Positions 38,122 through 55,401 are shown, numbered from the stretch's first letter. The stretch is 64,000 bases of DNA from Verrucomicrobiota bacterium (GCA_046734045.1 JBKPQL010000053.1:2903-66902); one strand, 5' to 3'. Notes: a model not told the origin generated them from the sequence alone. Translations and numbers: made by a program.

Positions 38122-40179
38122 ATGAATGACGAACGCAAAACTCCTGAGATGCGCGAGCAAATGTCCGATATCGAACGGCTCCGGCACTCAGCGTCGCACG
38201 TACTAGCCACGGCGATCTTAAAACTCTGGCCGGAAGCGCAGTTCGCCGCCGGGCCACCGGTTGACAACGGTTTTTATTACGATGTCGAGCTGCCACACCG
38301 AATTTCCCCGGATGATTTCAAAAAGATCGAGGCCGAGATGCAAAAGGAGGTCAAAGCAAACCATCCCTTCGAGCGCGTGGAAGTTTCGCGGGATGAAGCA
38401 CTCGCGCTCGGCAAGAAAGGCCGGCTCGCGGCACTAAGCGATCGACCCGAGCCCAGCAAGTACAAGCTCGACATCATCGAAAACATCCCGCCCGACGAAA
38501 AAATCTCGCTCTATCGCAGCGGCGACTTCATCGACCTTTGCGCCGGTCCGCATGTGAAGCGCACGGGCGAAATCGGCGCTTTCAAGCTCACTAATGTCGC
38601 GAGTGCTTACTACAAAGGCGACGAGAAGAATCCGCAGTTGCAACGGGTTTATGGCACGGCGTTTAAAACAAAAAAGGAGCTCGACGACTACTTCGCAATG
38701 CTCGAGGAAGCAAAGAAACGCGATCATCGCAAGCTTGGGCGCGAACTGGAACTGTTCGTCTTCGACGACGACGTCGGCCCGGGTCTGCCGATGTTCCTGC
38801 CACGTGGCGCAGTAATCGCCGAAGAACTGGAGAAATTAGCGAAAGAAACCGAGTTCGCTGCCGGTTATCAACGCGTGCGCACGCCGCACATCGCGCGCGA
38901 GAGCTTGTACAAAAGGAGCGGTCACCTCCCCTACTACGCCGAGTCAATGTTCCCGCCGATGGAATTGCAAGCTGAAGGCGAGCTTCAGCTTCGAATTACT
39001 CAAGATCGGGCAACCGGTCGTGCGCAATCTAAAGAACTTGCCGATAGAATGGGGCTAAATGCGGACAGTTTTAAAAAGCTTTCAACGCCAGAGGCGTTGC
39101 TTTCGTACTTACGCGACACAATCAAAGCGCAGTCGCCCGAAAATCAGGAACGCCTTCGGCAGATAGGGGAGAACGACGTGGTCACAAGGCTCGCGACTGC
39201 ATTTATGCCTGACCCGGATCGCTACTACCTCAAAGCGATGAACTGTCCGCATCATCACAAGTTATTTGCGGCAATTCCGCGCAGTTATCGCGACCTGCCG
39301 TTGCGGCTGGCGGAGTATGGGACGGATTATCGCTACGAAAAGAGCGGCGAGTTGTTCGGACTCATGCGGGTGCGGTCGCTGCAGATGAACGATGCTCATA
39401 TTTATTGCACGCCGGAGCAGTTCGAAGCGGAATTCAATGCCGTGAACGAGATGTATTTGAACTATTTCAAGCTCTTCGGAATCGAGAAATATCTGATGCG
39501 TTTCTCGACGCATGATCCTTCGAAGCTTGGACAGAAATTTGTGAACGAGTCGGAGCTTTGGAAACAAACCGAAGAGATGACACGCAATGTTCTAAAACGT
39601 TCCGGCATTAATTATGTCGAAGTTCCAAACGAAGCGGCTTTTTACGGGCCGAAGGTCGATGTGCAAGTCTGGAGCGTGGTCGGGCGCGAGTTTTCCATCG
39701 CGACGAACCAGGTCGATTTCGCCCAGCCGCGCCGATTGAATCTCGTTTACAAAGACCGCGATAACACTGAGAAGACGCCGATCTGCATTCACCGCGCGCC
39801 GCTCGGCACGCATGAACGGTTCATTGGATTTTTAATCGAGCATTACGCCGGCAATTTCCCGCTCTGGCTCGCACCCGAACAGGTGCGCATTCTCACAATT
39901 GGCGACGAGCCAAAGCTAATGGATTACGCACGATCGATTTTGAACGAACTGCGCGCTCATCAAGTCCGCGCAGAAATCGACGACAGCACCGACAAGATCA
40001 ACGGCAAAATCCAGCGCGCCGAACAAATGAAAGTCCACACCATGTTCGTCATCGGGAAACGCGACATGGAAGCCGAGGCGGTCAGCGTGCGCGTCCACGG
40101 GAAGGGCAATCTCGGGGCCAAACCGCGCAGCGAAGCAATTGCCCATATTTTGGAATCGATCCGCGAACGTCGCGCTTAA
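38122..40179 (+). CDS. thrS: threonine--tRNA ligase (no TGS domain; about 80-aa insertion in the catalytic domain)
   Basis: Motifs seen: RHSASHVLATAILKLWP...DNGFYYDV, DHRKLGRELELF, KAMNCPHHHKLF, RVRSLQMNDAHIY and a C-terminal anticodon-binding domain. Confidence 0.97.
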   Translation: MNDERKTPEMREQMSDIERLRHSASHVLATAILKLWPEAQFAAGPPVDNGFYYDVELPHRISPDDFKKIEAEMQKEVKANHPFERVEVSRDEALALGKKGRLAALSDRPEPSKYKLDIIENIPPDEKISLYRSGDFIDLCAGPHVKRTGEIGAFKLTNVASAYYKGDEKNPQLQRVYGTAFKTKKELDDYFAMLEEAKKRDHRKLGRELELFVFDDDVGPGLPMFLPRGAVIAEELEKLAKETEFAAGYQRVRTPHIARESLYKRSGHLPYYAESMFPPMELQAEGELQLRITQDRATGRAQSKELADRMGLNADSFKKLSTPEALLSYLRDTIKAQSPENQERLRQIGENDVVTRLATAFMPDPDRYYLKAMNCPHHHKLFAAIPRSYRDLPLRLAEYGTDYRYEKSGELFGLMRVRSLQMNDAHIYCTPEQFEAEFNAVNEMYLNYFKLFGIEKYLMRFSTHDPSKLGQKFVNESELWKQTEEMTRNVLKRSGINYVEVPNEAAFYGPKVDVQVWSVVGREFSIATNQVDFAQPRRLNLVYKDRDNTEKTPICIHRAPLGTHERFIGFLIEHYAGNFPLWLAPEQVRILTIGDEPKLMDYARSILNELRAHQVRAEIDDSTDKINGKIQRAEQMKVHTMFVIGKRDMEAEAVSVRVHGKGNLGAKPRSEAIAHILESIRERRA

Positions 40180-40739
40180 TGAGCCTTGGTACCGGTTTTC
40201 GGCTCAAGGTAGATAAAGCTCTTGAGTACTTCTTGTAGGGCAAGAGAATCCTTGCGGTAGCTCGCTTCATCTCGCGATGACAGGACGATGTAAGCGACGG
40301 CATGCGGCAGCTGTATGTAGGCCACACGCTCCCATTGAGAGTACGTCTTTGTGGCCGGATACTCATTAATGAAATAGTCATGACCGTCGCGCGTCTTGCC
40401 GGAGGCGATCTTCTCCTTCGGCTTTCCGTGCGTCTTCGCCATTCCTTTGATCGCCCATGCCACAAATGCATTTACGCCTTCAAACTCAGTGCTCGCGATC
40501 TTCGCGTACATCACGGTGCGCGCGTCCGCCCACGATTCGCCCTTTGGATAAAGAACACATGGCAATCCTTGGTCGGTCCCGGAAGTGTTGTCCAAGACCC
40601 ATCCATCCGGTGCAGCGATGCTAAAGGCGGCTTTCGGGCCATAAACGATTCCGCCGCGAAAGGTCTCCTGACCGAGCACGCCTGGAGAGAGCACACTGAC
40701 CGCGAGCAACGCGAGAATGCACGGCATTGGTCTTTTCAT
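40176..40739 (-). CDS. exported hypothetical protein, DcrB/PsbP-like (tentative); last gene of the island
   Basis: Signal peptide MKRPMPCILALLAVSVLSPGVLG, then FSIAAPDGWVLDN... The stop shares a TTAA with the thrS stop. Confidence 0.7.
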   Translation of the reverse strand: MKRPMPCILALLAVSVLSPGVLGQETFRGGIVYGPKAAFSIAAPDGWVLDNTSGTDQGLPCVLYPKGESWADARTVMYAKIASTEFEGVNAFVAWAIKGMAKTHGKPKEKIASGKTRDGHDYFINEYPATKTYSQWERVAYIQLPHAVAYIVLSSRDEASYRKDSLALQEVLKSFIYLEPKTGTKAH

Positions 40740-40774
40740 TGTAGTGGATCGTTTATTTCGTTCTCGAAAATCAT

Positions 40775-41806
40775 TCATTTGACGTTGCTCCCCAACTGTC
40801 TCTCGATGTCAGATGCGCGTGCTTCGGTGCTGTCGGCCATGTATTGCCAGTAACGCCGCCCTGCGGTCGATTTGGGGCCGGACTCAGCGTAGAACTTGGC
40901 GCCGATCTCTCGTGTGTCGACCAAGCCACCTTGCGCGCCACGAGAAGACTTAAGTTGCTCCTCATATTCTTTTACGCGTCGCTCGGCCGCTTCGTAACGC
41001 TTTTTCGACTCGGCCTCGGGTGGCAACTCACCTAGTGGTTCCGCTATCACTTCTGGGGGCAAACCCGAGTAACCCGACAAATTGGCGTAACGGTCCCATG
41101 CGCCTTTGTTGAGTCCTCTTAGGTAGTTCGTGAGCTCAAACTTTCCCGTTTTGGTATCGAAATAAACGTACCACTCATCAACTCTGCGTTCGCGTTTGGC
41201 GCGAAAGTCGCCGGCTCGAAGATCGACAAGGAGCCGTCCGGAATCAGGACTCCAGCCTCTGAACTCGATAATGCCCGCATCCCCACGCTCAGAGTGCACA
41301 GCGTCGGGCTTAAGTCGTTCCTGTCTCGCAAAAAAGCGCCATACCTGCGCGGCAAACGGTTGCGATTTATTTGCCTGTTCAAATTTCAAACCTTCGCCGC
41401 GTTTAAATAACTCACCATCCGCCATGCGACTGCCGAGATGAATCGTCGCGAAAATCCACCGCTCATCAGGCGAAATGAAATATGCTGCCGGCTGAGCGGA
41501 ACGCCGTTGGCCCAATGGTTCCCGCACTTTTGGATCGGCTGTGGAAACGACATACTGCTGCTCGTACCGGTCGGCCGTTGGATCCTCAGCCTCTCTTAAG
41601 ACCGTTTCGATCCTGAAGGTTCCCTTAGGACTGGTCTGCGCCTCGGTTTTCTCTCCTGTCTGCGCCGTTGCCGAGGGTGATGTTTGGGATGGACTCTCGG
41701 GAGCACTAGGTTTTTCGTCAGCAGCAAGAATGGAAAAAGTGTAGCTAATCCCGCACGCGACGATTGCGACAAAGACACTAATTACACGAATTGTCACGAG
41801 ATGCAT
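40775..41806 (-). CDS. island paralogue, type B module with coiled C-terminal tail; lipoprotein-like leader
   Basis: Leader MHLVTIRVISVFVAIVACGISYTFSILAADE. The segment ISPDERWIFATIHLGSRM...WSPDSGRLLVDL...WYVYFDTKTGKFELTNYLRGLNKGAW aligns with the C-half of 43498-45162. Confidence 0.8.
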   Translation of the reverse strand: MHLVTIRVISVFVAIVACGISYTFSILAADEKPSAPESPSQTSPSATAQTGEKTEAQTSPKGTFRIETVLREAEDPTADRYEQQYVVSTADPKVREPLGQRRSAQPAAYFISPDERWIFATIHLGSRMADGELFKRGEGLKFEQANKSQPFAAQVWRFFARQERLKPDAVHSERGDAGIIEFRGWSPDSGRLLVDLRAGDFRAKRERRVDEWYVYFDTKTGKFELTNYLRGLNKGAWDRYANLSGYSGLPPEVIAEPLGELPPEAESKKRYEAAERRVKEYEEQLKSSRGAQGGLVDTREIGAKFYAESGPKSTAGRRYWQYMADSTEARASDIERQLGSNVK

Positions 41807-42951
41807 AAGATTAAAGTCGGTTGTTGGATGATTCGGTGTGAATTGGTGGAATTCGTGTCTTGCGTTTTACTAGTGAGCAACGCCTTGATCTTCTCCATGT
41901 CGGGATGAGTTACGCCTGCTTCCTCGAGTTCCTTAAAGTCGTCTAGCACAGCCTGGCTGAAGGTCCGCTCGTCGTCGCGGAGCTTGGTATTTTTGCTTTC
42001 CAAATAAATAGCCTTCGCTTTGTCAAATTGGTTATCGAAAAGATACGCGTGGGCGAGGTTGCCTTTGATCAGCACTGCGTCATCCGGCGACAGCTCCAGG
42101 GCTTTTAACGAAGCGGCGATCGACTCGCGAGGCTTGCGGTTGAAGAGCTGATACCAACCAAGTTCGCTGTAGTACTCTCCATTCGTCGGATCTAGCTCAA
42201 TCGCCTTTTGTATGTCTTGGACGGCTGGCTCATACCGCTTCTCCTTCGCATCGGCATCGGCGCGGTCAGAGTAGGTTTCCGCTTCAATGGGATTATACTT
42301 CGTGTCGGATTTGAGTTTCTCCAGCCATTGTTTGAATTGCTTCGTACGCGCTTGGGTCATCTTCAATACTTCGCGATCTGCGACGGCAGTCGGGTTTTCC
42401 AACGAATTTTCCTGAGCTTTGCCGTTAGCAACCTGAGCGGCTTCGTTGCGCCGGTTAATCCAGGCGCGCTGTTGTTCCTTTAGCTGATCGCGCTGTGTTG
42501 GCGAAAGCCTGGCGCGGAGCGTGGAATACGTTTCGTTTAGCTGACGATCAGCGTCGAGAAAACGCGCGTCATAGCTAACAGCCTCTTCAGTTTTGCCTAA
42601 CTCTTTAATCGGTGCGCCTTGGATCGTAGCGGTCGGGCCATCCGGTGCGTCATCGAGCCTTAGATGCAAGACGCCTGAGTAACCGGGGCCATCTTCGGAT
42701 TTTGGAATGCTAGCTTCAAATAGAAGCCAAAGAGTAGTTGGATCGGAAAAGCCCTTGCGCTCTCCAATTTCAGGCAAGCTAAAGATCGGGTACTCGACCG
42801 TATAATTGCCAGACTTGCCGCGATCCCACTGTGTGCCGTAGTCTTTGACCGCCGAAGCGCGGCGTGCCTTGTTTTGTTGTGCTACAAATTTTTGCACAGA
42901 CTGGTCGAGGGACTTTAGCAAGCTGCGTTGCGAGACCGAGTCGCCGGTCAC
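41794..42951 (-). CDS. DUF1311/LprI-like domain + TPR protein (no signal peptide as called; possibly the continuation of 42948-43460)
   Basis: The segment ADRQLNETYSTLRARLSPTQRDQLKEQQRAWINRRNEAA matches the DUF1311 core. TPR-like KAIELDPTNGEYYSELGW...ALELSPDDA is also present. The last about 25 codons are encoded by the conserved leader motif. Confidence 0.75.
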   Translation of the reverse strand: MTGDSVSQRSLLKSLDQSVQKFVAQQNKARRASAVKDYGTQWDRGKSGNYTVEYPIFSLPEIGERKGFSDPTTLWLLFEASIPKSEDGPGYSGVLHLRLDDAPDGPTATIQGAPIKELGKTEEAVSYDARFLDADRQLNETYSTLRARLSPTQRDQLKEQQRAWINRRNEAAQVANGKAQENSLENPTAVADREVLKMTQARTKQFKQWLEKLKSDTKYNPIEAETYSDRADADAKEKRYEPAVQDIQKAIELDPTNGEYYSELGWYQLFNRKPRESIAASLKALELSPDDAVLIKGNLAHAYLFDNQFDKAKAIYLESKNTKLRDDERTFSQAVLDDFKELEEAGVTHPDMEKIKALLTSKTQDTNSTNSHRIIQQPTLILCIS

Positions 42952-43460
42952 AGAAAGAAGGATAAGATCCTGTGGACTCCATGATCGCAGTTCACAATAG
43001 CAAAGCGACGGCCATTGTTGTCTGCCGGTCCCCAGCGAGCGACCAGACTCTCATGGCCGTAACCTGGCAGCGACCATGACTTATCCAGCTTAAGTGTGGC
43101 CAGGCTTTTGTTATGGCGGTAATCAACCACGAGGAGCTCGACGAAGTAGCTTTCATCGTCGCCGTACGTTTCCTTAAATTTCTCGCGATCTTTTCCAAGC
43201 AAGTCCCAATCCACAGGCTCAGCGCCCTTCAAGCGACGCAGAGTCCACGCTAGCGCGAGCCGGCCGTCTGGCGACCCAGTTCCGGCCACGATTTCTGCTT
43301 TGCGATCGGCAAGCTCCACAACAGGCAATCCAGCCGCTGATTCTTCCGATGAGTTGTTAGCGGCCGGACTTTCTTCATCCGCGGCAAGAACACAACAATC
43401 ACAGTCGACCGCGCACGCGACGATTGCAACGAAGACACTAATTACACGAATCGTCACCAA
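42948..43460 (-). CDS. island paralogue, short type A (SPDG / W-x-x-D-x-x-x-R-F-A motifs only)
   Basis: A TTG/GTG start at 43460/43457. The leader LVTIRVISVFVAIVACAVDCDCCVLAADEE is about 90 percent identical at nucleotide level to that of 40775-41806. Motifs GSPDGRLALAW and ARWGPADNNGRRFAIV are present. Confidence 0.65.
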   Translation of the reverse strand: MVTIRVISVFVAIVACAVDCDCCVLAADEESPAANNSSEESAAGLPVVELADRKAEIVAGTGSPDGRLALAWTLRRLKGAEPVDWDLLGKDREKFKETYGDDESYFVELLVVDYRHNKSLATLKLDKSWSLPGYGHESLVARWGPADNNGRRFAIVNCDHGVHRILSFFL

Positions 43461-43497
43461 CTGAGTAAAGCTTGCATGAGTTGACGCGGCTTCACAC

Positions 43498-45162
43498 TCA
43501 CGGTTGAGAGGGGTTCTTTTCATCGGTCTTCGATTTCTCGTAAACCGGCAACTGCTCCTGGCGCACTTCGTCGATGTGATACCAAGTTCTTCTCGTACGC
43601 GCGCCGAGCTTTTTCTGTGGGTCTTTGATTTTCGCCAGATCGTCTTCCAGTTGTTCCCGCCATTGTTTCTGCTTCTGTTGAAATTCGGCCCGATCGGCGC
43701 CTTCAAGTTGCGACTCGCGTCGCTTGGTGATTGCGGCTAGCTCGCTCTTGTATCTTTTCAGCCTCTCCGCGATCGGCGCCTCCGGTCCTTCATGTCCAAT
43801 CGATTCGGCTGAAGAGGGGACAAAGCCGGATCCTTCTCCTTCTTCGTTGCCGATCTCGCGCCACCGTTTACGCGCGCCTTTATTGTTTTTTCGAAGCCGG
43901 TCGGTCAGCTCAAATTTTCTCGTTTTCGTGTTGAAGTAAGCAACCCAGCCGGAAACGCCGGGGTTCTTGTAGTCGGCCGAACGATAATATGTGTCCTTAC
44001 CGGTTAGCCCGCCATGCAGATCGATCAACAGCCGCGCCGAATCATCGGTCCAATCTAGAAAGCCGGCCTGCTCCGGGAACTCGTCCGTGCGATCCACTTT
44101 GCTAGAGGGAACGTTTTCGGCTTTGCAGAAAAATTTCCACGCTTCGTCGTCGAAGGACGCGTCTGGAAAAACGTCTTCGAACTTCACTCCTTCTTTGCGA
44201 TGAAAGAGGTAAGTTGAATTCATATGGCTGCCGTGATGTTGCCCGACGAGCATCCAGTTCTCGTCCGGTGAAATTGAGACGCTATTGAGGTGTGTAAAAC
44301 CTCTCTCGTGGAAACCGGGTAAAGGTTCACGCATAGCCGGATCCTTTGCGGAGACAATCCAGACTTCCAGATCCGTGTCCGGACGGCCTTCGTCGTCTTT
44401 TGTGGGAACCTCAAGCTCTTCGATGTAAAAATTGCCGCGAGGCGATTCGATCCCACTTGCGATCGCCTCGCGCGGCTTTTCGACTTTCGCCGTCACGTTG
44501 TTCTGTGCATCGAACGCGAGCGTGATGTTCTGCCGGCACTCGATCATTTCACCCTTGAGCATTTTCCATTCGCCGTACACCTCGACGAACAAGTCTCCGG
44601 AATCGCTCCAACCTTTCGGTGTCACTGTGTACGAAACCGTGCTGAGGTATTTCGGGTCTTCGTCTTTGATTTCATCGCACCGCGGGAATTCCGGAAGCGG
44701 GATTTCCACAAACGTATCGCCATTTCGAAAATAAACGCTGGTAGTCCGGCTTCGCTGGCTCTCCGCGGAGCTGTAAGCCCCGCGTTCTTCATTGAAGTAC
44801 GCGACGCGCTGCGAGTCGTTAGACCAAAGGAGCCGCGCGTCTTTCGCGTAGTCCTCGATTCGGAAGGTATCGACGCTGCTGGCCCAAAGGACCCGTTCCT
44901 TATCTCCAGATATCGCGACGCTTTCAAGATCGACAATCTTCTTCGTCGTCTGCGCGTCGATGATCGCCGTCTCCCAGCCTTCTTCCCCGGGCGCTAACTG
45001 CAATGCAAACTTCCCGTCCGGCGATTTGTTTTTAATCACGCCTTTGTTGGACTCTCCTGAGGATCGCTTCGCACCTGCGGGTTCCGCACCGTCAGCGGCA
45101 ACAACCGATAAGGCGCAGCTGACCGTCAAGGCGACAATTGCGAGAAAGGAGCGAATTCTCAT
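43498..45162 (-). CDS. island paralogue, chimeric: type A module + type B module + DUF1311-like tail
   Basis: The N-half (KSPDGKFALQL...LLWSNDSQRVAYF...VYFRNGDTFVEIPLPEFP) aligns with 46248-46838. The C-half (ISPDENWMLVGQHHGSHM...WVAYFNTKTRKFELTDRLRKNNKGA) aligns with 40775-41806. The tail is AEFQQKQKQWREQLEDD. Confidence 0.85.
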   Translation of the reverse strand: MRIRSFLAIVALTVSCALSVVAADGAEPAGAKRSSGESNKGVIKNKSPDGKFALQLAPGEEGWETAIIDAQTTKKIVDLESVAISGDKERVLWASSVDTFRIEDYAKDARLLWSNDSQRVAYFNEERGAYSSAESQRSRTTSVYFRNGDTFVEIPLPEFPRCDEIKDEDPKYLSTVSYTVTPKGWSDSGDLFVEVYGEWKMLKGEMIECRQNITLAFDAQNNVTAKVEKPREAIASGIESPRGNFYIEELEVPTKDDEGRPDTDLEVWIVSAKDPAMREPLPGFHERGFTHLNSVSISPDENWMLVGQHHGSHMNSTYLFHRKEGVKFEDVFPDASFDDEAWKFFCKAENVPSSKVDRTDEFPEQAGFLDWTDDSARLLIDLHGGLTGKDTYYRSADYKNPGVSGWVAYFNTKTRKFELTDRLRKNNKGARKRWREIGNEEGEGSGFVPSSAESIGHEGPEAPIAERLKRYKSELAAITKRRESQLEGADRAEFQQKQKQWREQLEDDLAKIKDPQKKLGARTRRTWYHIDEVRQEQLPVYEKSKTDEKNPSQP

Positions 45163-46142: not shown

Positions 46143-46218
46143 GCTCTTTAAAAGCCAAAGCCGCGACGGGTAGCGGCAAGCGAGCGGGGGAAGCGAGCGA
46201 GTTTCAAATTCGCGTTTT

Positions 46219-47596: not shown

Positions 47597-47598
47597 TT

Positions 47599-48225: not shown

Positions 48226-48632
48226 TCTTTGAGATGCACTTTTAGCCGTTTGATTCGTTGTTGAGTGAGCTCGGTCATGGTTTCGTAGCGGATTGTGGGA
48301 GCCACTGACCCGCCGCGCACCTGATCACCAGCAAACGCTGCCTCGGCATCGCGAAAGGCAAGCCACCTTCGCTGGCTTTGCTTGAGCTTTCCCTTGCCCT
48401 CAGTATCCGGAAGCTCTCTCAAAAGCGCTTCATAAGTCTTGTTAGGTTCCACATCAGCTTGCTCAAACTCCGCGCGCACCAGAGCATTCGTGGCTGCCTG
48501 CGTCTGCGTGTGAACCTGAACGGGAATAAGCAGCCAAGCCAGCAGAGCTGCGCACTGCGGAAGTAACCAATCAGCTGACGAAGAATTGAAGTGCCACGTA
48601 GCTGTTTGAGGTTTCTCGTCAGTCATAGCCAT
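48222..48632 (-). CDS. DUF1311 / LprI-like protein
   Basis: The segment PNKTYEALLRELP...LKQSQRRWLAFRDAEAAF...GGSVAPTIRYETMTELTQQRIKRLK matches the family. The start was chosen at the ATG 48632 (or 48626). The longer ORF form overlaps the upstream gene. Confidence 0.8.
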   Translation of the reverse strand: MAMTDEKPQTATWHFNSSSADWLLPQCAALLAWLLIPVQVHTQTQAATNALVRAEFEQADVEPNKTYEALLRELPDTEGKGKLKQSQRRWLAFRDAEAAFAGDQVRGGSVAPTIRYETMTELTQQRIKRLKVHLKE

Positions 48633-49317
48633 GTGGTAATCCTGATGTAACTCTCTTCTTTGAAATGGTTCGGAACTCGTTAGTCGTCTTATCGAATTTG
48701 GCAGTGAAGCGAATCGGCCTCTCATCACCACTGCCATGCGAAAAGGTCGCGGATTGTTCCAGGACTAAGACTCCCGGCTTCGTCCATTCGACCGGCCTGA
48801 CATACTCGTGGTTAACGTGGCCTTTGATCTCAACACTGAGCTCTTGCGGTTCATTTAGCAGGATAAACTGGTTGCCTTTTTGTCGGTAAACCGTCGTGTA
48901 GCCAATGCGCGGCGCGGCCGCATAGAAGGCGCACCATTTCGAGTCGGGCGACCAGACCAGCAGGATGTAATCGTATTCACCGCCAAGCTTCTGATCCCTT
49001 GAAAAATTGGCGACGACCGATTTCTCAGGCAACGAGACAAGCTCGATCGCCTTGAGAGTTTGCGAGAAAATTTTCGCCGGGTCAGCGTTTTCCGCCTTAA
49101 TGACCTGGTTGTTGAGCTCGGCGTCGTAAGAAATTCGCATTGCAAATTTCTTGTCCGGTGAAACGTCACGAATCTTTTCCGCAAGCGCCGGCTCCTGCGC
49201 TTTCCCGGAGCTTTCACTCGCACCGGCCTGCGGCTTGTCCTGGGCGAAGGTGCTGCTGGTTCCCGCGAGGTAGACCGACGTCAGCACCATTAGAGATCTC
49301 GTAGCGGCTAGGAGCAT
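48619..49317 (-). CDS. island paralogue, type A variant
   Basis: Signal peptide; motifs VSPDKKFAMRI, LVWSPDSKWCAFY, VYRQKGNQFILLNEP and tail RFTAKFDKTTNEFRTISKKRV. Confidence 0.85.
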   Translation of the reverse strand: MLLAATRSLMVLTSVYLAGTSSTFAQDKPQAGASESSGKAQEPALAEKIRDVSPDKKFAMRISYDAELNNQVIKAENADPAKIFSQTLKAIELVSLPEKSVVANFSRDQKLGGEYDYILLVWSPDSKWCAFYAAAPRIGYTTVYRQKGNQFILLNEPQELSVEIKGHVNHEYVRPVEWTKPGVLVLEQSATFSHGSGDERPIRFTAKFDKTTNEFRTISKKRVTSGLPHGYD

Positions 49318-49372: not shown

Positions 49373-49382
49373 CATCTGCCGG

Positions 49383-49490: not shown

Positions 49491-49517
49491 CGCAACTGCG
49501 AAAGGAAACGATATGCA

Positions 49518-50228
49518 TTAAGGTTCGGGGTTAATGTCGATCTTGCCGGGCCGAAAGCTGACCTTATCGAACTTTGCCGTGTCAAGGTTCCAAATGGCGT
49601 GCAGCTCGGCCGTCCAATGCGGACCGGCAGCAAGATTAGGTTTATTGTCGGCCGACAGATCTAGAATCAGCTGTCGCCCTTTGAATTGGAAATCCCCTCT
49701 CCCGCGTTGTTCGCCGTGCTCGGAAACGATCACAAAGCTGTCATACTCCTTCGGGTATTTTTTTAGGAAACGCCCCTTGAAATCGCGTTGGAAAATTTTT
49801 AGCGCCTCGCGCCAGACCGGTTGGACTCGCTTCACCGTGTCGTTTTCAATTTCGTAAACGCTTAAATCGACAATTCCCCACTTTCGATATTCCCAGACCG
49901 CGACTTCCGAATTGCCGTTCCACTGCGCATTCAACTCGGTCGTTACGTTTCGTGGCAAGCCGTCCTTCTCAACAGTTGCCAGCACGGAATATGGTTTCAA
50001 TCGCACCAAAAGATTTGGCGGATACTTGTCGTTTTTATCTTCCGTGCCTTGTAGCGGGTAGAGAATCGCAAAACGCCTATCAGGCGAAATGGTATCTTCG
50101 CCAATTTCGTAGCCTTTTGGAACTTCAGCGGTCGGCTGAACGCCAGTATCACCCGCCGACGGCTCCTGCGCCGGGATTGCAGAATTGCATACCCAAAACA
50201 GCGCTAGGAAAGCAATACGCCCTTTCAT
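49518..50228 (-). CDS. island paralogue, A/B hybrid
   Basis: Signal peptide MKGRIAFLALFWVCNSAIPA. Motifs ISPDRRFAILY, EVAVWEY, LILDLSADN...WNLDTAKFDKVSF. The start overlaps the upstream stop (ATGA). Confidence 0.8.
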   Translation of the reverse strand: MKGRIAFLALFWVCNSAIPAQEPSAGDTGVQPTAEVPKGYEIGEDTISPDRRFAILYPLQGTEDKNDKYPPNLLVRLKPYSVLATVEKDGLPRNVTTELNAQWNGNSEVAVWEYRKWGIVDLSVYEIENDTVKRVQPVWREALKIFQRDFKGRFLKKYPKEYDSFVIVSEHGEQRGRGDFQFKGRQLILDLSADNKPNLAAGPHWTAELHAIWNLDTAKFDKVSFRPGKIDINPEP

Positions 50229-53200
50229 TCTTCGAGGTGCGCCGAGTCCATGATGCGATCGATCTCTGCCTTTAACTCGGGAGAAGTGTTAAGGTTCGAG
50301 GTAAAGGTGACCTCTAACAACTGGCCTTTGTAAGATGTGGTTAGGAAGCGCGTGTAAACTGGATTGTGAGAATAATCCTTCTTTCCCTTTAGCACCGGGA
50401 CGTAACGCCAGTCTGCCCATTTACGGCCATCAATGGTCACGATCTCTTTCTTCAGCCATTGCAGGTGGGAATCTTTGGATAGCCACTTGAAACCTTTGCT
50501 GTATTCATCGACACGCCTTTTGAGATAGCCGGGTAGGTCCTCCGGCGTGAGTCCGTGAGTGCCACGTAAAACTTCTCCCCACGCTCCATCTGCTGGGCCA
50601 GAGAACTTAGCGATCGTTTTTGGATGTGCGGGATCATCAGGCTCACGCGAAAAATCCGGTGAGATATCGATCTTGAGTTTGCCATCGAGCAGGCTCACCC
50701 TATTCGCGGCCGCAGCGCTCTTAAAGTCTGCGTCGGCCCCGGCCTTGTCGCCCTTGGCCTTCCTGGCGATGCCGCGATTATAATAGGCGAAGGCGTAATC
50801 GGGTTTTAGTTCGATCGCGCGGGTGAGATCAGCAATCGCGCCATCCGCATCCTTGTTTCTTCCTTTCAAGGTGCCGCGTTCGAAGTAAGCCTCGGCGAAT
50901 TTCGGATCGAGTTCGATTGCTCGCGTACAGTCGGCGAGCGCACCAGCCGCGTCTTTCTTCAGCCGTTTGGCATGAGCGCGATTGGAGTACGCAATCGCAT
51001 CCTTGGGATCGAGCTCGATCGCATGGCTGAAATCGGCGATGGCTCCATCCAAGTCCCCTTTCTTCGCTTTTTCGATACCGCGATTAACAAGGTCGATTTT
51101 CTCGGCGCTCTTAAAGTCCGCCTCCGCCTCGGCTTTATCACCCTTGGCTTGCCTGGCTTCGGCGCGATTTTTGTAAGCGATGGCTAGATTAGAGTCTAAT
51201 TCAATTGCGCTGGTGAAATCTGCGATCGCGCCGTCAAGCTCGCCCTTCGCTTTCTTGACATTGCCACGGTTGTTGTATGCCTTGGCCTCCTTTGGATCCA
51301 ACTCAATGGCGTGGTTGTAATCGGCAAGGGCCCCATCAGGGTCGTTGTTCCTGGCTTTCAGGATGCCGCGGTTGTTATAAGCGTTAACGTTTTTTGGGTC
51401 TAGTTCGATAACATGCGTGTAATCCGCAATGGCACCGGCCGTATCCTTCTTTAACAATTTGGTAGCGGCACGGTTGTAATAAGCGGCTGAATTCTTAGGA
51501 TCGAGCTCGATCGCGCGATTAAGATCAGTCAAAGCTCCATCCAAGTCGCCTTGCTGACCTTTTTCGATCCCGCGCTCGACTAGGTCGACATCTGATTCGT
51601 TCTTCGAATCCGCAGCAGACTCTTCGCTTGCGAGTTTCGGATCCAGTTCTTTCGCGCGCTTGAAGTCTGCGGCAGCCCCCTTGGCATCTCCCTTGGCCTT
51701 CTTGGTGACAGCGCGATTGTAGTAGGCGCGCGCATAGTCAGGTTTGAGTTCGATTGCGCGTGTGTAATCAGCAATTGCTCCATCCGGGTCGTTGTTCTCC
51801 GATCTGGCGTTGCCGCGGTTGTTGTAAGCAGCCGGATTCGTGGAGCCGAGCTCGATGGCGTGGGTATAGTCGGCAATAGCGCCGGCCGTGTCCTTCTTCA
51901 GCCGTTTGGCTTGGGCCCGGTTATAATAAGGGGCGTCATTCTTTGGATCGGCTTTGATCGCGCTGTCGAAATCGGCTATCGCTCCATCCAAGTCACCGTC
52001 CTTCGCTTTTTTGATTCCGCGATTAACAAGGTCTCCAGCAGGCTCTTCGTCCGCTGACGAGGCTGGCGGTGCTGATTTCGCTAAGTTCTTCTGATCGGTT
52101 GCACCGTCGCGCTGCTTCTTTTCGCTTGAGGCCTTGCCTGTATCCCAGGTGTAACTGACGCTCCCGTCGGCATCGCGAACGAGTTTCGCGCCGACGGCGG
52201 CGGCTCTTGCCGCGGGCCTTTCACCGATTGGAATCACCTCCACGTAAAACGAAACTGGTTCGCCTTCGGTTCGACCCAGCGCGCCCATCTTTTCCAATTG
52301 CTCCGAGGCGTGCGTTCCGCTCACCGTCTTTTTGAGAAATCCCAACTTCACCAGCGCGTCATGGGGAAATTCAACAACGCCGTAATGATTTGGGATAGCG
52401 GTGTCTTTGAGAAACGCGCGGTAGGTGTCCTCGCCAATTTGTTCCGATTGCAAAAGTTTGGGAGTCATCTCGACGCGAACGATCTTGCCTTTCCAATCGA
52501 ACTTGTGTTGCTCAATGTCATTGAAGCCATGAACCTTATCGTCAACGGGCGGCCCAAGCGGCGGCGGCGCGATTTTTTCTTTGGCCGGCGCATAATCGAA
52601 TGAGCAGTGGACCACTTGAGAAGCGCCTTGCGAAAACATCGGCATCTCGGCGTGCCCGATGTATTGAGCTTGTCCTTGGGAATCGAGCACCAGCCAATAT
52701 TGCGGTAACTGGTTCGGATCGGCTTTTGCCTCGGCAACCTTCAGCTGAATGTGCAACCACGTCTGGCCGTCGCGTTGTTCGGAGCCCACTTTTTCAAACG
52801 GCGGCCAAAGTCGGCCGGTCATGATCGGAGTGTGCGCCCAATTATAGAGCAACCGATCGTCCGGGCTGCCGGCGTGCCACGTCTCTCCGTCGGAACAAAC
52901 CCAAGCCTTGTCTTTAATCACGATGCCGCGCATTGGCGTGTTTGGTTTCACGCGTTCATTCGTTAGATCAAAATCTTCGCCGGAGAGAAGTCCATGCAGC
53001 TTGATTGTATTCTTGAAAGTGACGGTGCCGTTCACCGACCACACACCGGTGCTCATCTTTTTCATTGCGGCCATGAGAAGCGCTTCCGGTCCAGGCGGCG
53101 GCGCCTGCGCGTGCGGATTGCCGGGCGGCGGAAGGATCGGATGCTCATCCATGTTCGGTGTGTAGTCCACTTGGTCGGTCACATAGTTATTCTCAAAACC

Positions 53201-53779
53201 CATCGGCCCGAGAAAGCGATGAATCACCGGCGACTGTCGATCTTGCAGCGCGATCCAATAATTGGCCCGGTCGCCTTCGTACGTGATTTTGTCCGGCGCG
53301 ATGAACCGAATGTGCAATAACGATTCGTTTCCCAATTTCTCTGTGCCGACCTCCGCAAACGGCGGAATCTTTTCGTTCGTCGAATATTTGATCGGCGTGT
53401 GCATGAGATAATAGAAGCGCCGATCAATCTCGTTGTTCTCTTTCCAACTCTTGCCGCCGTCATCGCTCGACCAGCTTTTGTCGCCCAGCGCGATCTGGCG
53501 CGTGGTCCTATCGACGGTTTCGATCGTGAGATCGAAATCTTTTCCGAAAATAATTCCAGAAATCTTCATATCCTTGTCCGCGTTCACGTGCGCTTGAACG
53601 CTCCAAGCCTTTGCATCGGCAATTTTTTTGGCCGCAGCCAAGATCGCTTCCGGTTTTTCCTGGCCGGATGCAGCCGACTTCTTTTGTGCTTTGGCGAAAC
53701 CAACTGACGCGCTCGCCAACAGAATGGATGCAGGAATCATCCACATCCAAGTTGAGCTGACACCGACGATCTTTTCCAT
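50225..53779 (-). CDS. 1184-aa exported multidomain protein: two tandem about 170-aa N-terminal modules, a middle domain, about 13 TPRs in three super-repeats and a DcrB/PsbP-like C-terminal domain
   Basis: The start was chosen at the ATG 53779 (MEKIVGVSSTWMWMIPASILLASASVGFA). TPRs such as AIADYTHAIELDPKN..AYNNRG are present. The ORF extension to 54148 overlaps the upstream gene and was rejected. Confidence 0.85.
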   Translation of the reverse strand: MEKIVGVSSTWMWMIPASILLASASVGFAKAQKKSAASGQEKPEAILAAAKKIADAKAWSVQAHVNADKDMKISGIIFGKDFDLTIETVDRTTRQIALGDKSWSSDDGGKSWKENNEIDRRFYYLMHTPIKYSTNEKIPPFAEVGTEKLGNESLLHIRFIAPDKITYEGDRANYWIALQDRQSPVIHRFLGPMGFENNYVTDQVDYTPNMDEHPILPPPGNPHAQAPPPGPEALLMAAMKKMSTGVWSVNGTVTFKNTIKLHGLLSGEDFDLTNERVKPNTPMRGIVIKDKAWVCSDGETWHAGSPDDRLLYNWAHTPIMTGRLWPPFEKVGSEQRDGQTWLHIQLKVAEAKADPNQLPQYWLVLDSQGQAQYIGHAEMPMFSQGASQVVHCSFDYAPAKEKIAPPPLGPPVDDKVHGFNDIEQHKFDWKGKIVRVEMTPKLLQSEQIGEDTYRAFLKDTAIPNHYGVVEFPHDALVKLGFLKKTVSGTHASEQLEKMGALGRTEGEPVSFYVEVIPIGERPAARAAAVGAKLVRDADGSVSYTWDTGKASSEKKQRDGATDQKNLAKSAPPASSADEEPAGDLVNRGIKKAKDGDLDGAIADFDSAIKADPKNDAPYYNRAQAKRLKKDTAGAIADYTHAIELGSTNPAAYNNRGNARSENNDPDGAIADYTRAIELKPDYARAYYNRAVTKKAKGDAKGAAADFKRAKELDPKLASEESAADSKNESDVDLVERGIEKGQQGDLDGALTDLNRAIELDPKNSAAYYNRAATKLLKKDTAGAIADYTHVIELDPKNVNAYNNRGILKARNNDPDGALADYNHAIELDPKEAKAYNNRGNVKKAKGELDGAIADFTSAIELDSNLAIAYKNRAEARQAKGDKAEAEADFKSAEKIDLVNRGIEKAKKGDLDGAIADFSHAIELDPKDAIAYSNRAHAKRLKKDAAGALADCTRAIELDPKFAEAYFERGTLKGRNKDADGAIADLTRAIELKPDYAFAYYNRGIARKAKGDKAGADADFKSAAAANRVSLLDGKLKIDISPDFSREPDDPAHPKTIAKFSGPADGAWGEVLRGTHGLTPEDLPGYLKRRVDEYSKGFKWLSKDSHLQWLKKEIVTIDGRKWADWRYVPVLKGKKDYSHNPVYTRFLTTSYKGQLLEVTFTSNLNTSPELKAEIDRIMDSAHLEE
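50702..52033 (-). repeat. three coding super-repeats (131-164 aa each, every one starting DLV(N/E)RGI(K/E)K) of TPR units
   Basis: Blocks lie at about 51587-52033, 51095-51586 and 50702-51094. They share long stretches such as KKDTAGAIADYTH(A/V)IEL and NNDPDGA(I/L)ADY. Confidence 0.8.
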
Positions 53780-53786
53780 ACTCTTT

Positions 53787-54914
53787 CTAATCCGCTCGGT
53801 TGCGGATCGTAATGACAGGCGGGTTTTTTTCAGGTCGATACATCGACGCACCATAACAGATTGCGGCAGTGTCTTTGCGCGCGTAACGCACTTGTGGCTC
53901 GCCTGCGCAATACGGAGGGTCGTGCTGGTCGTAACACCTCTCCTTAATATTCGCGCCCCAACGTTCGACGTAGGAGCAATTCGCAGTCTTCGAACTGCCG
54001 GGAATTTCGACGTAGCGATTTTCGGTGAGTGTGAGAAACGCCGCCTCCCCGGGAAGCGGAATCGGCGTCGCCCAGTTTGGCGATAATTGGATGAGCTTTC
54101 GCTTGTTGAAATCGAAAGCCTCGACCGTGTCGCCCTCCGTGCTGTCAAGGTGGCAGCTGAAGAATATTAACCGCAGCGGACCCTCGAACAGAAACTGTTG
54201 ATCCGTGTTCCGCCGAATTTGCAACGGCTCGAAGGACGGGAAGCCGCGCAGCTTGCCGACCTTAGCCTCTTGGCCCGAGTTGGAATCGCGGAACCACATT
54301 ACCCAGTCCAGTGGATCCTCCTTGTCTTCGTCCTTGCGCCAGAAGATTTCGCCCGCCGCGGCGGGGGCGTTGATCGTTGCTGGCGGGCGGTCTTTTGCAT
54401 CAGCCACAGCGTCCAGCGCTGTCACACTCGGATGTTCCCGCCGCTCGGCGCTCTCGCCTGTCGCGGAAGGCGGCCCGGATTCTTCCTGCCTCGCTGCTGG
54501 AGAGGCCGATGAAGATTGCTCTTCGCCTTGTTCGAGATTCGTGAAATAAGGTGAGCTTTTCGTTGCCGAGTACCAATCGGGCGCGGCATCGAACTTCTTC
54601 GGCTTCGTGCCGCGAGGATCGATGCTCCAAAATTCCCGCGTGTCATTTGGTTTCTCGCGGGTGAACGCAATCGTTTTCCCATCGGGCGCGAAAATCGGAT
54701 CGATGTCCTGCCCGGAATTGTCGTTGGTCAATTGTCGCAACAGCTTTCCGTCTTCACGATATAAGTAAAGATGTGAATGACTCGTGCCCTTGGCCTGTAG
54801 ATAGCGAATCGCAATCACAATCTCGGAGGCGCCGCGCGAGACCGTCGCCGTCAACGCAAATACTGCGGCGAGGAGAAATGTTGGAAGCATCGATCGCATC
54901 AACACCACAGCCAC
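53787..54914 (-). CDS. exported protein with PD40/TolB-like repeats and an unknown Cys-containing C-terminal domain
   Basis: Signal peptide MLPTFLLAAVFALTATVSRGA. The segment LYLYREDGKLLRQLT...DIDPIFAPDGKTIAFT is PD40-like. A low-complexity linker follows. Confidence 0.8.
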   Translation of the reverse strand: MAVVLMRSMLPTFLLAAVFALTATVSRGASEIVIAIRYLQAKGTSHSHLYLYREDGKLLRQLTNDNSGQDIDPIFAPDGKTIAFTREKPNDTREFWSIDPRGTKPKKFDAAPDWYSATKSSPYFTNLEQGEEQSSSASPAARQEESGPPSATGESAERREHPSVTALDAVADAKDRPPATINAPAAAGEIFWRKDEDKEDPLDWVMWFRDSNSGQEAKVGKLRGFPSFEPLQIRRNTDQQFLFEGPLRLIFFSCHLDSTEGDTVEAFDFNKRKLIQLSPNWATPIPLPGEAAFLTLTENRYVEIPGSSKTANCSYVERWGANIKERCYDQHDPPYCAGEPQVRYARKDTAAICYGASMYRPEKNPPVITIRNRAD

Positions 54915-55401
54915 CTACTCCTTCGACGGAACTTTCTTTTTTGAAATGATTCGGAACTTGCCGGTTTTCTCGTCGAACTTGGCAGTGAATCTGTAGGTAG
55001 CCTCTTCCCCTCGCCTCCGCGAAAGATGTCGTATTGCTCGAGCAACAGGATACCCGGTCTTATCCACCGAATTGGCGTGACATATTCGTTCCTGACATCC
55101 CCTTGGCATCGACCCGGAGCTCCGCCTCAAGTCGGGCAAAATCATTGCCTGAGCGATGATAAATATACGTATCCGTAACGCGTGGGCCACCGGTTAAAGG
55201 ATACGCAAACCAGTTCGAATCCTTGGACCAAACCAAATGAGAGGCACTGCCTTCGTTGTCTTGACCGACGTTCACCACAACCTTCTTCGATCGAAGCGAA
55301 ACGAGTTCGACTGCAGTGATCAGACTGGAATCGGTATTGTTAGGATCTTCCGGTTCCGAGCTGCACGAAATGCGCAGCGCGAATTTTCCGTCCGCCACCA
55401 C
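54915..55401 (-). pseudogene. 5'-truncated, doubly frameshifted copy of the 48619-49317 type paralogue
   Basis: Frame a reads VVADGKFALRIS...HLVWSKDSNWFAY...IYHRSGNDFARLEAELRVDAKG. Frame c reads DVRNEYVTPIRWIRPGILLLEQYDIFRGGEG. Frame b reads ATYRFTAKFDEKTGKFRIISKKKV*. There is no signal peptide. Confidence 0.75.

What the first reader, a model, noticed from the sequence alone, without database searches (positions are those of the whole stretch)
40176..55401. A 15-kb single-strand island of shuffled, exported paralogues with no enzyme, toxin or mobility gene, wedged between thrS and a DUF1844/M16-peptidase operon
Seen directly:
- Every ORF I accept between 40176 and 55401 is on the minus strand.
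- Spacers are at most about 200 nt, and four junctions are 4-nt start/stop overlaps (42948-51, 46835-38, 48222-25, 50225-28).
- All intact products except 41794-42951 begin with a signal peptide or lipobox.
- At least nine products or fragments share a three-motif core: SPD(G/R/K/E)xxFA, then (V/L)WSxDSxxxA(F/Y), then (V/L)(Y/F)xxxGxxFxx(I/L). These are 46248-46838, 46835-47467, 47599-48225, 48619-49317, 42948-43460, the N-half of 43498-45162, 49518-50228, and the decayed copies at 47468-47596 and 54915-55401.
- They are interleaved with three DUF1311/LprI-like proteins, a DUF3828-like protein, DcrB/PsbP-like domains, a PD40 protein and a 1184-aa TPR protein.

Established knowledge: the motifs resemble PD40/TolB beta-propeller blades, and DUF1311 includes the mycobacterial lysozyme inhibitor LprI.

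Inference: this is a lineage-specific, rapidly evolving envelope-protein island. Two readings are possible. One is an array of periplasmic inhibitor or immunity-type proteins that protect the cell wall. The other is a variable surface-lipoprotein family. I recognise no ATPase, nuclease, protease, transporter, toxin, integrase or transposase, and I cannot match the island to any named system.
Basis: partly seen in the sequence, partly recalled or inferred. Interest (0 to 1): 0.8.

Follow-up and report, generated by a model that had tools for sequence, protein, structure and literature searches.

The report
Variable array of exported half-propeller proteins
Downstream of thrS, this soil Verrucomicrobium (Candidatus Udaeobacter-like) carries a strain-variable array of exported, enzyme-free binding proteins (three-bladed "half propellers", LprI/DUF1311 helical domains, a Tai3-type protein and TPR scaffolds), which most resembles a repertoire of periplasmic inhibitors of cell-wall-degrading enzymes, though that function is inferred, not shown.

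Summary
From 40176 to 55413 every credible gene is on the minus strand. Gaps are at most 200 nt, there are several ATGA overlaps, and every product except one has a hydrophobic N-terminus.

The paralogues are real (BLAST E down to 1e-31). They form one lineage-specific superfamily with no Pfam or NCBIfam model. AlphaFold models show a three-bladed PD40-like partial beta-propeller. It occurs alone (famX: H, I, J, L, N-half of E, pseudogene P) or followed by a C-terminal LprI/DUF1311 helical region (famY: B, C-half of E; famZ: D+C). M is a distant relative.

The one product without a signal peptide (C) is the 3' half of a frameshifted gene (D+C). G is a divergent DUF3828/Tai3-type protein.

Homologues are almost all from Chthoniobacterales and Ca. 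Udaeobacter. There the same modules recur in different orders and fusions, next to thrS or RecQ. Some relatives have none of them downstream of thrS. Base composition is native. No toxin, enzyme or secretion gene lies beside any array examined.

Best reading (about 0.4): a diversifying periplasmic inhibitor or immunity-type repertoire against cell-wall hydrolases. Rivals are envelope-homeostasis scaffolds and variable surface proteins.

The parts
38122..40179 (+). thrS, the conserved anchor of the hot spot. It is convergent with the array.
   Evidence: Pfam tRNA-synt_2b, tRNA_SAD and HGTP_anticodon. The upstream synteny PMT2-orf186-MTase-cNMP-thrS is kept in relatives with 76-89% thrS identity.
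40176..40739 (-). A: an exported ~185-aa protein that is weakly PsbP/DcrB-like. It is a conserved boundary gene rather than part of the variable set.
   Evidence: PsbP hit E 0.0065, below the cutoff. A is found directly downstream of thrS in L022, L030, L036, L039, L054, L087 and L028. dN/dS is 0.06-0.17, similar to thrS. In other genomes the same domain is fused to the N-terminus of TPR proteins (L015, L006, L098, L103).
40775..41806 (-). B: famY. Signal peptide, three-blade partial beta-propeller with a helical insert, then a C-terminal LprI-like helical region.
   Evidence: AF2 pLDDT 84. Foldseek hits are S9-peptidase, MADH and TolB propellers. Homologues carry PF07007 and are named YecT/DUF1311. 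B is 34% identical to the C-half of E.
41794..43523 (-). D+C: a single gene split by a frameshift near 42985-42995. Domain order is signal peptide, beta domain (famZ), LprI, then a TPR extension. The reported 4-nt overlap at 42948-51 is the end of the 5' reading frame.
   Evidence: D aligns to residues ~44-173 and C to ~204-384 of the same 346-385-aa proteins in L005, L009 and L015. C has LprI at 37.7 bits plus TPR. The same split is seen in two other metagenome assemblies.
43498..45162 (-). E: a fusion of famX (N-half) and famY (C-half), giving two three-blade units plus helices in one 554-aa exported protein.
   Evidence: Local HMMs: famX 2e-56 and famY 6e-185. BLAST to H, J and B.
45226..45582 (-). 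F: a small exported LprI/DUF1311 protein. It is a recent duplicate of K.
   Evidence: PF07007 at 58.4 bits. 61% aa identity to K, and 82% nt identity over 228 nt.
45648..46142 (-). G: an exported 164-aa protein, a divergent DUF3828/Tai3-type (NTF2-like) protein.
   Evidence: G has no direct Pfam hit. It has 1117 representative relatives, and 33 of 51 aligned homologues hit PF12883 (best 8e-13). The profile against PDB gives 2qgu 7e-4, 3kzt 0.045 and Tai3 4hz9_B 0.42.
46217..46246 (-). A 30-nt fossil copy (90% identity) of the N-stop/M-start junction, lying in the H-G spacer. It is a footprint of recombination or duplication.
   Evidence: the repeat finder family D7.
46248..46838 (-). H: famX, an exported three-blade PD40-like partial beta-propeller.
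   Evidence: AF2 pLDDT 87.8 with twelve strands in three 4-stranded sheets. Foldseek hits TolB and other propellers at E ~1e-3, TMq 0.35-0.48. No Pfam or NCBIfam hit.
46835..47467 (-). I: famX paralogue. Its stop overlaps the start of H (ATGA).
   Evidence: famX HMM 1.9e-51. The gene is broken to an 81-aa fragment in two other metagenome contigs.
47493..47585 (-). Remnant of the 3' end of a further I-like gene.
   Evidence: tblastn of I residues 179-209: 58% identity.
47599..48225 (-). J: famX paralogue.
   Evidence: 37% identity to H, E 1e-22.
48222..48626 (-). K: a small exported LprI/DUF1311 protein.
   Evidence: PF07007 at 70.1 bits. The start follows the gene call in L001.
48619..49317 (-). 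L: famX paralogue.
   Evidence: famX HMM 6e-38. BLAST hits to H, I and P.
49518..50228 (-). M: an exported 236-aa protein from its own family, distantly related to the first two blades of famX.
   Evidence: hhalign 89%, E 2e-6. M recurs in the cassette famX->M->famY in L005, L010/L016, L099 and L101.
50225..53779 (-). N: an exported 1184-aa protein with two unclassified ~200-aa N-terminal repeats, about 11 TPR units, and an unclassified C-terminal domain.
   Evidence: Pfam TPR_1 5.7e-68. The N-terminal module stands alone in L015, L017 and L099. PDB sequence search found nothing.
53787..54899 (-). O: an exported 370-aa PD40-repeat protein.
   Evidence: PF07676 at 26.5 bits. An orthologue is present in L100.
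54915..55413 (-). P: a decayed famX gene, L-like and spread over at least two reading frames.
   Evidence: tblastn of L gives 38-48% identity in three pieces. Repeat family D5.

Best explanation
The region is a native, hypervariable array at a hot spot downstream of thrS. It holds exported protein-binding modules with no catalytic partner.

The core is one Chthoniobacterales-specific superfamily of three-bladed PD40-like partial beta-propellers. These occur alone (famX) or followed by a C-terminal LprI/DUF1311 helical region (famY, famZ). They are interleaved with stand-alone LprI proteins, a DUF3828/Tai3-type protein and TPR scaffold proteins.

The most likely role is in the periplasm, as stoichiometric binders and inhibitors of cell-wall-degrading enzymes: lysozyme-like or amidase toxins from competitors, and possibly the cell's own lytic enzymes. 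On this reading it is an 'orphan' inhibitor/immunity repertoire. Diversity is produced by tandem duplication, domain shuffling, exchange of signal-peptide cassettes, and decay.

Shown: the anatomy, the folds, family membership of LprI, TPR and PD40, the lineage restriction, and the variability.

Inferred: periplasmic location, binding or inhibition, and the identity of the targets.
For: **Export.** All complete products have N-terminal hydrophobic signals.

**Family precedents.**
- Five genes carry LprI/DUF1311 or a degenerate form of it.
- DUF1311 proteins are reported as the cognate T6SS immunity of a cell-wall effector (Etsi4, PMC12981562), as predicted orphan immunities behind lysozyme-like effectors (PMC9796082), and as candidate immunities next to WHIX effectors, together with DUF3828/Tai3 (PMC12135965).
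- G is DUF3828-type by transitive evidence.
- famX and famY fold as three antiparallel sheets forming a partial propeller. This is the architecture described for Tsi1, and also reported for PliI and X-Tfi, which are inhibitors of peptidoglycan hydrolases (PMC3391265, PMC10933484).

**Array behaviour typical of immunity or inhibitor repertoires.**
- Tandem paralogues at 20-40% identity, a recent duplicate (F/K, 82% nt), fragments and pseudogenes, and shared 98-nt signal-peptide cassettes.
- Strain- and species-level presence/absence at the thrS hot spot.
- Elevated dN/dS for B (0.53), against 0.06-0.11 for thrS.

**Context.** One related array abuts an alpha-2-macroglobulin-PBP1C pair, a gene pair proposed (from my own knowledge) to protect the periplasm against proteases.
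Against: - No toxin, effector, secretion-system or hydrolase gene lies next to these families in any of about 12 loci inspected.
- famX and famY are almost confined to one order, so no cognate effector partner is known anywhere.
- Recurrent cassettes (famX->M->famY), fusions (E, L007, L013, DUF5122+famX, NHL+famX, famX+YtkA) and very large proteins (1184 aa, possibly ~1900 aa) suggest co-operating parts of a complex rather than independent immunity genes.
- The inhibitor role of the LprI domain itself is doubtful. ScwA, which carries an LprI domain, gave no lysozyme protection, and in LprI the MliC domain may do the inhibiting (PMC7933661).
- Foldseek hits are generic propellers. Tsi1, PliI and X-Tfi were not among the top 50.
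- G and A fail the Pfam cutoffs themselves.
Confidence: 0.4

Rival explanations
1. Envelope-homeostasis scaffolds. The half-propellers, LprI domains and TPR proteins bind and regulate the cell's own peptidoglycan enzymes or Tol-Pal-like envelope machinery. The analogy is to TolB (PD40 propeller), CpoB (TPR) and ScwA (LprI domain controlling MltD levels). On this reading the expansion reflects many endogenous partners.
For: - PD40-type blades and TPR are the building blocks of TolB and CpoB (own knowledge; Foldseek TolB hits).
- ScwA, an LprI-domain protein, modulates MltD and gives no lysozyme resistance (PMC7933661).
- A DUF1311 insertion mutant lowers beta-lactam tolerance in P. aeruginosa (PMC7038268).
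- One related array is adjacent to PBP1C.
- Peptidoglycan-binding and YkuD genes lie at 60.5-63.3 kb in the window.
- Conserved cassettes and fusions imply complexes.
- A is under strong purifying selection.
Against: - Housekeeping regulators should be conserved in copy number and position. Here the content differs between close relatives, and some have no array at thrS.
- Pseudogenes and fragments are frequent.
- B evolves fast (dN/dS 0.53).
- There are too many paralogues for the few peptidoglycan enzymes expected in a genome lineage described as reduced (own knowledge).
Confidence: 0.25
2. Variable surface (lipo)proteins. The products are exported to the outer surface, where they act as diversified adhesins, nutrient binders or decoys against phage and predators.
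For: - Lipobox-like Cys in B, D, E, G and H.
- Hot-spot variability, paralogue turnover and shared signal-peptide cassettes.
- IS elements sit inside a related array.
- Fusions occur to large propellers (DUF5122, NHL) and to an Ig-like YtkA domain, both typical of surface proteins.
Against: - No phase-variation machinery is present: no invertible segment, no simple-sequence tract, no recombinase.
- Most signals also have an AXA-type site after the Cys, so lipidation is uncertain (read from the N-terminal sequences).
- LprI and DUF3828 members studied so far are periplasmic (PMC7933661; Tai3, cited in PMC12135965).
- No known surface-export signal was recognised.
Confidence: 0.15
3. Combinatorial propellers. 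Three-blade units pair in trans (famX with famY, or famX with famX) to close six-bladed TolB-like propellers capped by LprI helices. The array would then encode subunits of hetero-oligomeric receptors rather than stand-alone proteins. This concerns architecture and is compatible with any of the functional readings above.
For: - Both families model as exactly three blades.
- They are fused in E, L007 and L013.
- They are adjacent, with M between them, in at least three different genomic contexts.
- Overlapping stop/start codons suggest coupled translation.
Against: - No multimer model could be run.
- Tsi1 is a stable monomeric partial propeller (PMC3391265), so closure is not required.
- Single-chain pTM values of 0.78-0.81 suggest the units fold on their own.
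Confidence: 0.12
4. A decaying gene graveyard: non-functional remnants of a formerly useful family.
For: P, the 47493-47585 fragment, the split D/C gene and the 30-nt fossil. Gene I is broken in other contigs.
Against: - Thirteen genes have intact ORFs and confident folds.
- Homologues number in the hundreds.
- dN/dS is below 1 for B and at most 0.17 for A.
Confidence: 0.05

Closest known systems
Arrays of orphan immunity genes against periplasm-acting T6SS effectors (e.g. the Pantoea agglomerans hcp island; Bacteroidales acquired interbacterial defence clusters)
   Same: Tandem, co-directional, exported small proteins with no toxin of their own. LprI/DUF1311 and DUF3828/Tai3-type members are present. 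Content varies between strains, with fragments and pseudogenes (PMC9796082, PMC12135965, PMC10470768).
   Different: There is no T6SS locus and no integrase or recombinase. No homologue was found next to an effector. Few families are present, but they are heavily duplicated, shuffled and fused, and include proteins above 1000 aa. The region is compositionally native and lineage-restricted.
Tsi1 / PliI / X-Tfi(XAC2610) partial beta-propeller inhibitors of peptidoglycan hydrolases
   Same: Exported all-beta proteins built from three antiparallel sheets arranged as an incomplete propeller. Their nearest structural neighbours are the propellers of S9 and DPP-IV-type peptidases (PMC3391265, PMC10933484).
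   Different: No sequence similarity was detected, and these proteins were not in the top 50 Foldseek hits. The inhibitory loop was not identified and no partner enzyme is known. famY and famZ add an LprI helical domain that those inhibitors lack.
LprI / DUF1311 family (PF07007; M. tuberculosis LprI, E. coli YecT, Salmonella ScwA, EHEC Etsi4)
   Same: C, F and K pass the Pfam cutoff, and famY homologues carry PF07007. Members are exported.
   Different: Here the domain is mostly appended to a half-propeller or to TPR repeats, an architecture not described for the characterised members. B itself has only a degenerate version with no Pfam hit. The biochemical role of the domain is unsettled (PMC7933661).
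TolB (PD40 six-bladed propeller of the Tol-Pal system)
   Same: The SPDG and WSxDS blade motifs. TolB gives the best PDB sequence hit (E 0.04) and the best Foldseek hits.
   Different: Only three blades, no TolB N-terminal domain, no tol-pal neighbours, and many paralogues. The PD40 Pfam model does not score on famX.

Membership tests
LprI/DUF1311 (PF07007) | Pfam HMM score above the gathering cutoff (22 bits) | tested here: met
   C scores 37.7, F 58.4 and K 70.1 bits. B and E do not score themselves, but most famY homologues carry PF07007 and B models with C-terminal helices at residues 264-341.
LprI/DUF1311 (PF07007) | Inhibition of lysozyme or of a cell-wall toxin | not testable with these tools
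   This needs biochemistry. The literature is divided: Etsi4 is an immunity protein (PMC12981562), while ScwA has no lysozyme role (PMC7933661).
DUF3828 / Tai3 (PF12883) | Pfam HMM match for protein G | tested here: inconclusive
   G has no hit at E<=0.1. However, 33 of 51 homologues hit PF12883 (best 8e-13). The profile hits 3kzt (E 0.045) and Tai3 4hz9_B (E 0.42, near full length).
Orphan immunity gene array (T6SS-type) | Homologues encoded immediately next to a cognate effector in some genome | tested here: not met
   No toxin or effector domain was annotated beside famX, famY or LprI genes in the surveyed loci L001, L015-L017 and L098-L103. For DUF1311 and DUF3828 the feature is met only in the literature, in other phyla.
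Orphan immunity gene array (T6SS-type) | Export to the compartment where the toxin acts | tested here: met
   Hydrophobic N-terminal signals are present in all products except the split fragment C. This is a heuristic check only, not SignalP.
Orphan immunity gene array (T6SS-type) | Variable content between strains and species | tested here: met
   Content downstream of thrS differs among 80 related loci. L021, L062, L096 and L051 have no module within 6-10 kb. Gene I is broken in two other contigs.
Orphan immunity gene array (T6SS-type) | Protection of the cell against a defined toxin | not testable with these tools
   Requires competition or co-expression assays.
PD40 / TolB beta-propeller | Closed propeller of six or more blades, with a PD40 Pfam match | tested here: not met
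   famX and famY model with three four-stranded sheets only. No PF07676 hit for famX or famY. Only O matches PD40 (26.5 bits).
Tsi1/PliI/X-Tfi partial-propeller inhibitors | Three-sheet partial propeller architecture | tested here: met
   H has strands 28-70, 79-114 and 136-188. B has strands 52-103, 107-144 and 179-224. This matches the description of Tsi1 in PMC3391265.
Tsi1/PliI/X-Tfi partial-propeller inhibitors | [quoted passage not shown] | tested here: inconclusive
   These proteins were not among the top 50 Foldseek PDB hits for either model. The loop could not be assessed without a partner.
Horizontally acquired genomic island | Integrase, tRNA or direct-repeat boundaries, and deviant composition | tested here: not met
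   No integrase or transposase. GC is 53.1% against 54.9%, and GC3 is within one SD of other genes. No flanking direct repeats.

The most novel reading that the evidence does not exclude
Ca. Udaeobacter-type soil Verrucomicrobia carry an undescribed, combinatorial periplasmic binding repertoire. Three-blade PD40 half-propellers (famX, famY, M) would pair in cis or in trans into six-bladed TolB-like propellers capped by LprI helices. Hot-spot arrays next to thrS and RecQ would shuffle these units to diversify specificity. The result would be an innate-immunity-like shield against the lytic enzymes and bacteriocins of competitors, and it could help explain the reported benefit this lineage draws from antibiotic release in soil.
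Probability: 0.12. Interest if true: 0.8.

Novelty: new variant of a known kind. Interest (0 to 1): 0.5.

Why it matters
Ca. Udaeobacter and other Chthoniobacterales are described as among the most abundant soil bacteria, and they remain largely uncultured (own knowledge).

A large, fast-turning family of exported half-propeller/LprI proteins with no Pfam model, concentrated in hot spots, would be a major uncharacterised part of their envelope biology. If these proteins are inhibitors of cell-wall-degrading toxins, orphan-immunity-type defence would extend to a phylum and an environment where it has not been described. It would also supply a new structural class of inhibitor: a partial propeller plus a DUF1311 domain.

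If they are instead regulators or surface proteins, the family still gives the poorly understood DUF1311 domain a recurrent partner (the half-propeller). That pairing makes its function testable.

Tried and rejected
**Searches that found nothing**
- NCBIfam and PADLOC scans of the island proteins gave no hit.
- PDB sequence searches with G alone, with A, with the N-terminal 560 aa of N, and with the N-terminal 1170 aa of the giant L013 ORF gave nothing meaningful. One call failed because of wrong frame coordinates.
- The sigma-70 promoter and terminator scan was uninformative: 4 promoter-like sites against 7.8 expected.

**Technical dead ends**
- A genome scan with the broad famX alignment failed for lack of a conserved stretch. 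A narrower alignment worked.
- I wanted a structure of the fusion protein E, to see whether its two halves close a propeller. MAFFT placed the famY homologues on the famX half (alignment A6), and no E-like fusion existed among the admissible proteins. I therefore modelled B instead.

**Readings rejected**
- A classical horizontally acquired island: native composition and no mobility genes.
- An anti-phage defence system: no PADLOC hit, and all products are exported.
- C as an independent cytoplasmic LprI-TPR protein: it is the 3' part of a split gene.

**Literature**
Searches linking Udaeobacter to lysozyme inhibitors found nothing, and the type VI secretion search returned three papers (not read) with only passing mentions of Udaeobacter.

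Full report
**1. Observation**

Between 40176 and 55413 the only ORFs with homologues or domain hits are on the minus strand. There are fifteen genes plus one decayed copy. Intergenic distances run from -26 to +200 nt. The four reported 4-nt overlaps are present (GTGA at 42948-51; ATGA at 46835-38, 48222-25 and 50225-28). There is also an ATGA at 40775-78 and an 8-nt overlap at 48619-26.

A crude export check (hydrophobic window plus lipobox regex) is positive for every product except C, 41794-42951. Pfam confirms:
- LprI in C, F and K
- TPR in C and N
- PD40 in O
- threonyl-tRNA synthetase (thrS) domains and DUF1844 in the flanks

It finds nothing for the paralogue family. The M16 label for the flanking ORF 55951-58575 was not tested. 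NCBIfam and PADLOC find nothing either. The paralogy is real, with BLAST E-values from 1e-7 down to 1e-39.

**2. What the paralogues are**

They fall into related families.

| Family | Members in the window | Architecture |
|---|---|---|
| famX | H, I, J, L, N-half of E, pseudogene P | ~170-aa domain alone |
| famY | B, C-half of E | similar beta domain, helical insert, C-terminal region that is LprI/DUF1311 in most homologues |
| famZ | D+C | signal peptide, beta domain, LprI |
| M family | M | own family |

Profile-profile comparison ties M (89%), famY (87%) and, weakly, famZ (62%) to famX.

The AlphaFold models are confident. H has pLDDT 87.8 and twelve strands in three four-stranded antiparallel sheets. 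B has pLDDT 84, with three such sheets, a helical insert, and long C-terminal helices. Foldseek against the PDB returns only propellers: TolB, S9 and DPP-type peptidases, and methylamine dehydrogenase. E-values are 1e-4 to 1e-2 and TM scores are low, because the query covers only about half of a ring. The unit is therefore a three-bladed PD40-like partial propeller, not a closed propeller.

**3. Corrections to the gene list**

- **C has no signal peptide because it is not a gene of its own.** D aligns to residues ~44-173, and C to ~204-384, of the same 346-385-aa proteins in three other genomes. The reading frames switch near 42985-42995. The same split appears in two other metagenome assemblies; the one whose DNA could be compared is the same strain.
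- **G gets no Pfam hit itself.** However, 33 of 51 aligned homologues hit DUF3828, and its profile weakly reaches the Tai3 structure.
- **A's PsbP hit is below the cutoff**.
- **The 47468-47596 'copy' is only a C-terminal remnant**.

Footprints of rearrangement:
- F and K share 82% nucleotide identity over 228 nt.
- A 98-nt signal-peptide cassette occurs at the starts of B, D and H.
- A 30-nt fossil of the N/M junction lies in the H-G spacer.

**4. Distribution and variability**

famX and famY homologues are all unnamed or labelled 'YecT/DUF1311'. Where an organism is given, it is Ca. Udaeobacter, Chthoniobacterales or Verrucomicrobiae, apart from one famY hit (P0192) labelled Pyrinomonadaceae. 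One metagenome contig is the same strain at 99.995% identity.

Among 80 thrS loci from relatives (62-89% protein identity), the upstream synteny is conserved in those at about 76-89% identity. The downstream side varies:
- A alone
- different mixes of famX, famY, LprI and M
- arrays of ~3.5 kb (L102) to more than 12 kb (L099)
- no module at all within 6-10 kb (L021, L062, L096, L051)

A second recurrent site is next to recQ (L098, L100, L101, L103). A close relative carries a large array beside an alpha-2-macroglobulin-PBP1C pair, with IS elements inside it.

Modules are reshuffled and fused:
- LprI+famX+famY
- DUF5122 or NHL propeller + famX
- famX + YtkA
- A domain + TPR
- the N-terminal module of N standing alone

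A cassette famX->M->famY recurs in at least three different contexts.

Composition is native: GC3 is 0.586 against 0.615 +/- 0.038. A evolves like a core gene, with dN/dS 0.06-0.17. B against its closest copy gives dN/dS 0.53.

**5. Mechanism**

No enzyme, toxin, transporter or secretion gene is present in the island or beside any related array. The products are therefore binding modules.

Three of the component types have characterised relatives that neutralise cell-wall-degrading enzymes in the periplasm:
- DUF1311: the Etsi4 immunity protein (PMC12981562), predicted orphan immunities behind lysozyme-like effectors (PMC9796082), and listing together with DUF3828/Tai3 in PMC12135965.
- DUF3828: Tai3.
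- Partial beta-propellers: Tsi1, PliI and X-Tfi (PMC3391265, PMC10933484).

Combined with the array behaviour (duplication, decay, hot-spot variability, fast protein evolution), the best-supported reading is a diversifying periplasmic inhibitor or immunity-type repertoire. I put this at about 0.4.

The weak points are these:
- No effector partner was seen anywhere.
- The families are lineage-restricted.
- The conserved cassettes and fusions look like parts of complexes.
- The role of the LprI domain is unsettled (PMC7933661).

Rivals are regulators or scaffolds of endogenous envelope enzymes (0.25), variable surface proteins (0.15), and plain decay (0.05).

An architectural idea cuts across these readings: three-blade units may pair into six-blade rings. 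This is suggested by the fusion protein E and by famX/famY adjacency. It could not be tested here.

**6. Comparison and novelty**

The island works most like an orphan immunity/inhibitor array. It fails the key membership feature, an effector-adjacent homologue. It also differs in having few but heavily shuffled families, very large members, and no mobility genes.

The half-propeller families have no Pfam or NCBIfam model, and I found no description of the half-propeller + LprI architecture in the papers read here (no dedicated search for it was run). I rate this a new variant of a known kind, of moderate interest. The anatomy and evolutionary behaviour are solid. The function remains inferred.

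Noticed in passing
L015:1-7013 (contig_15056 of ERZ25039533): In a close relative (B orthologue 86% identical) the equivalent module array starts directly after a 1968-aa bacterial alpha-2-macroglobulin gene and a PBP1C gene. The pair has been proposed (own knowledge) to protect the periplasm against proteases.
   Followed up: partly
L098, L100, L101, L103; also L021:10723-12879 and L028:6606-8441: recQ is a second recurrent neighbour of these arrays. In some relatives recQ lies just downstream of thrS, so the thrS and recQ hot spots may once have been a single region.
   Followed up: partly
L101:8967-12910: IS110-family and IS3-family transposase genes sit inside a related array, immediately after a famX+YtkA gene. 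The window's island has no such genes.
   Followed up: no
L013:6428-12214: A very long ORF (1761-1929 aa) in a high-GC Chthoniobacterales MAG ends with famX, famY and LprI domains. Its N-terminal ~1170 aa match nothing in Pfam or PDB. A long antisense ORF overlaps it, so the gene call is uncertain.
   Followed up: partly
window 60528-63313: Two small proteins with PG_binding_1 domains and a YkuD L,D-transpeptidase lie a few kb beyond the M16 peptidase. These are cell-wall genes close to the island, with no demonstrated link to it.
   Followed up: no
window 41803-41860 and 49314-49371: The stretches just upstream of the starts of B and L share a 58-nt repeat at 76% identity. This may be a shared 5' leader or a duplicated junction.
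   Followed up: no
P0056, P0071, P0075, P0089, P0110 (famX hits of 340-374 aa): A subfamily fuses famX to a conserved C-terminal domain of ~150 aa with no Pfam match. The domain carries motifs such as DEKNGYM and GDGAQ.
   Followed up: no
window 40775-41806 versus L015:10001-11059: B and its closest copy differ by dS of only 0.24, while thrS comparisons among relatives (not including the L015 genome) give dS of about 1.1. This may point to recent exchange or gene conversion of array genes between lineages.
   Followed up: partly
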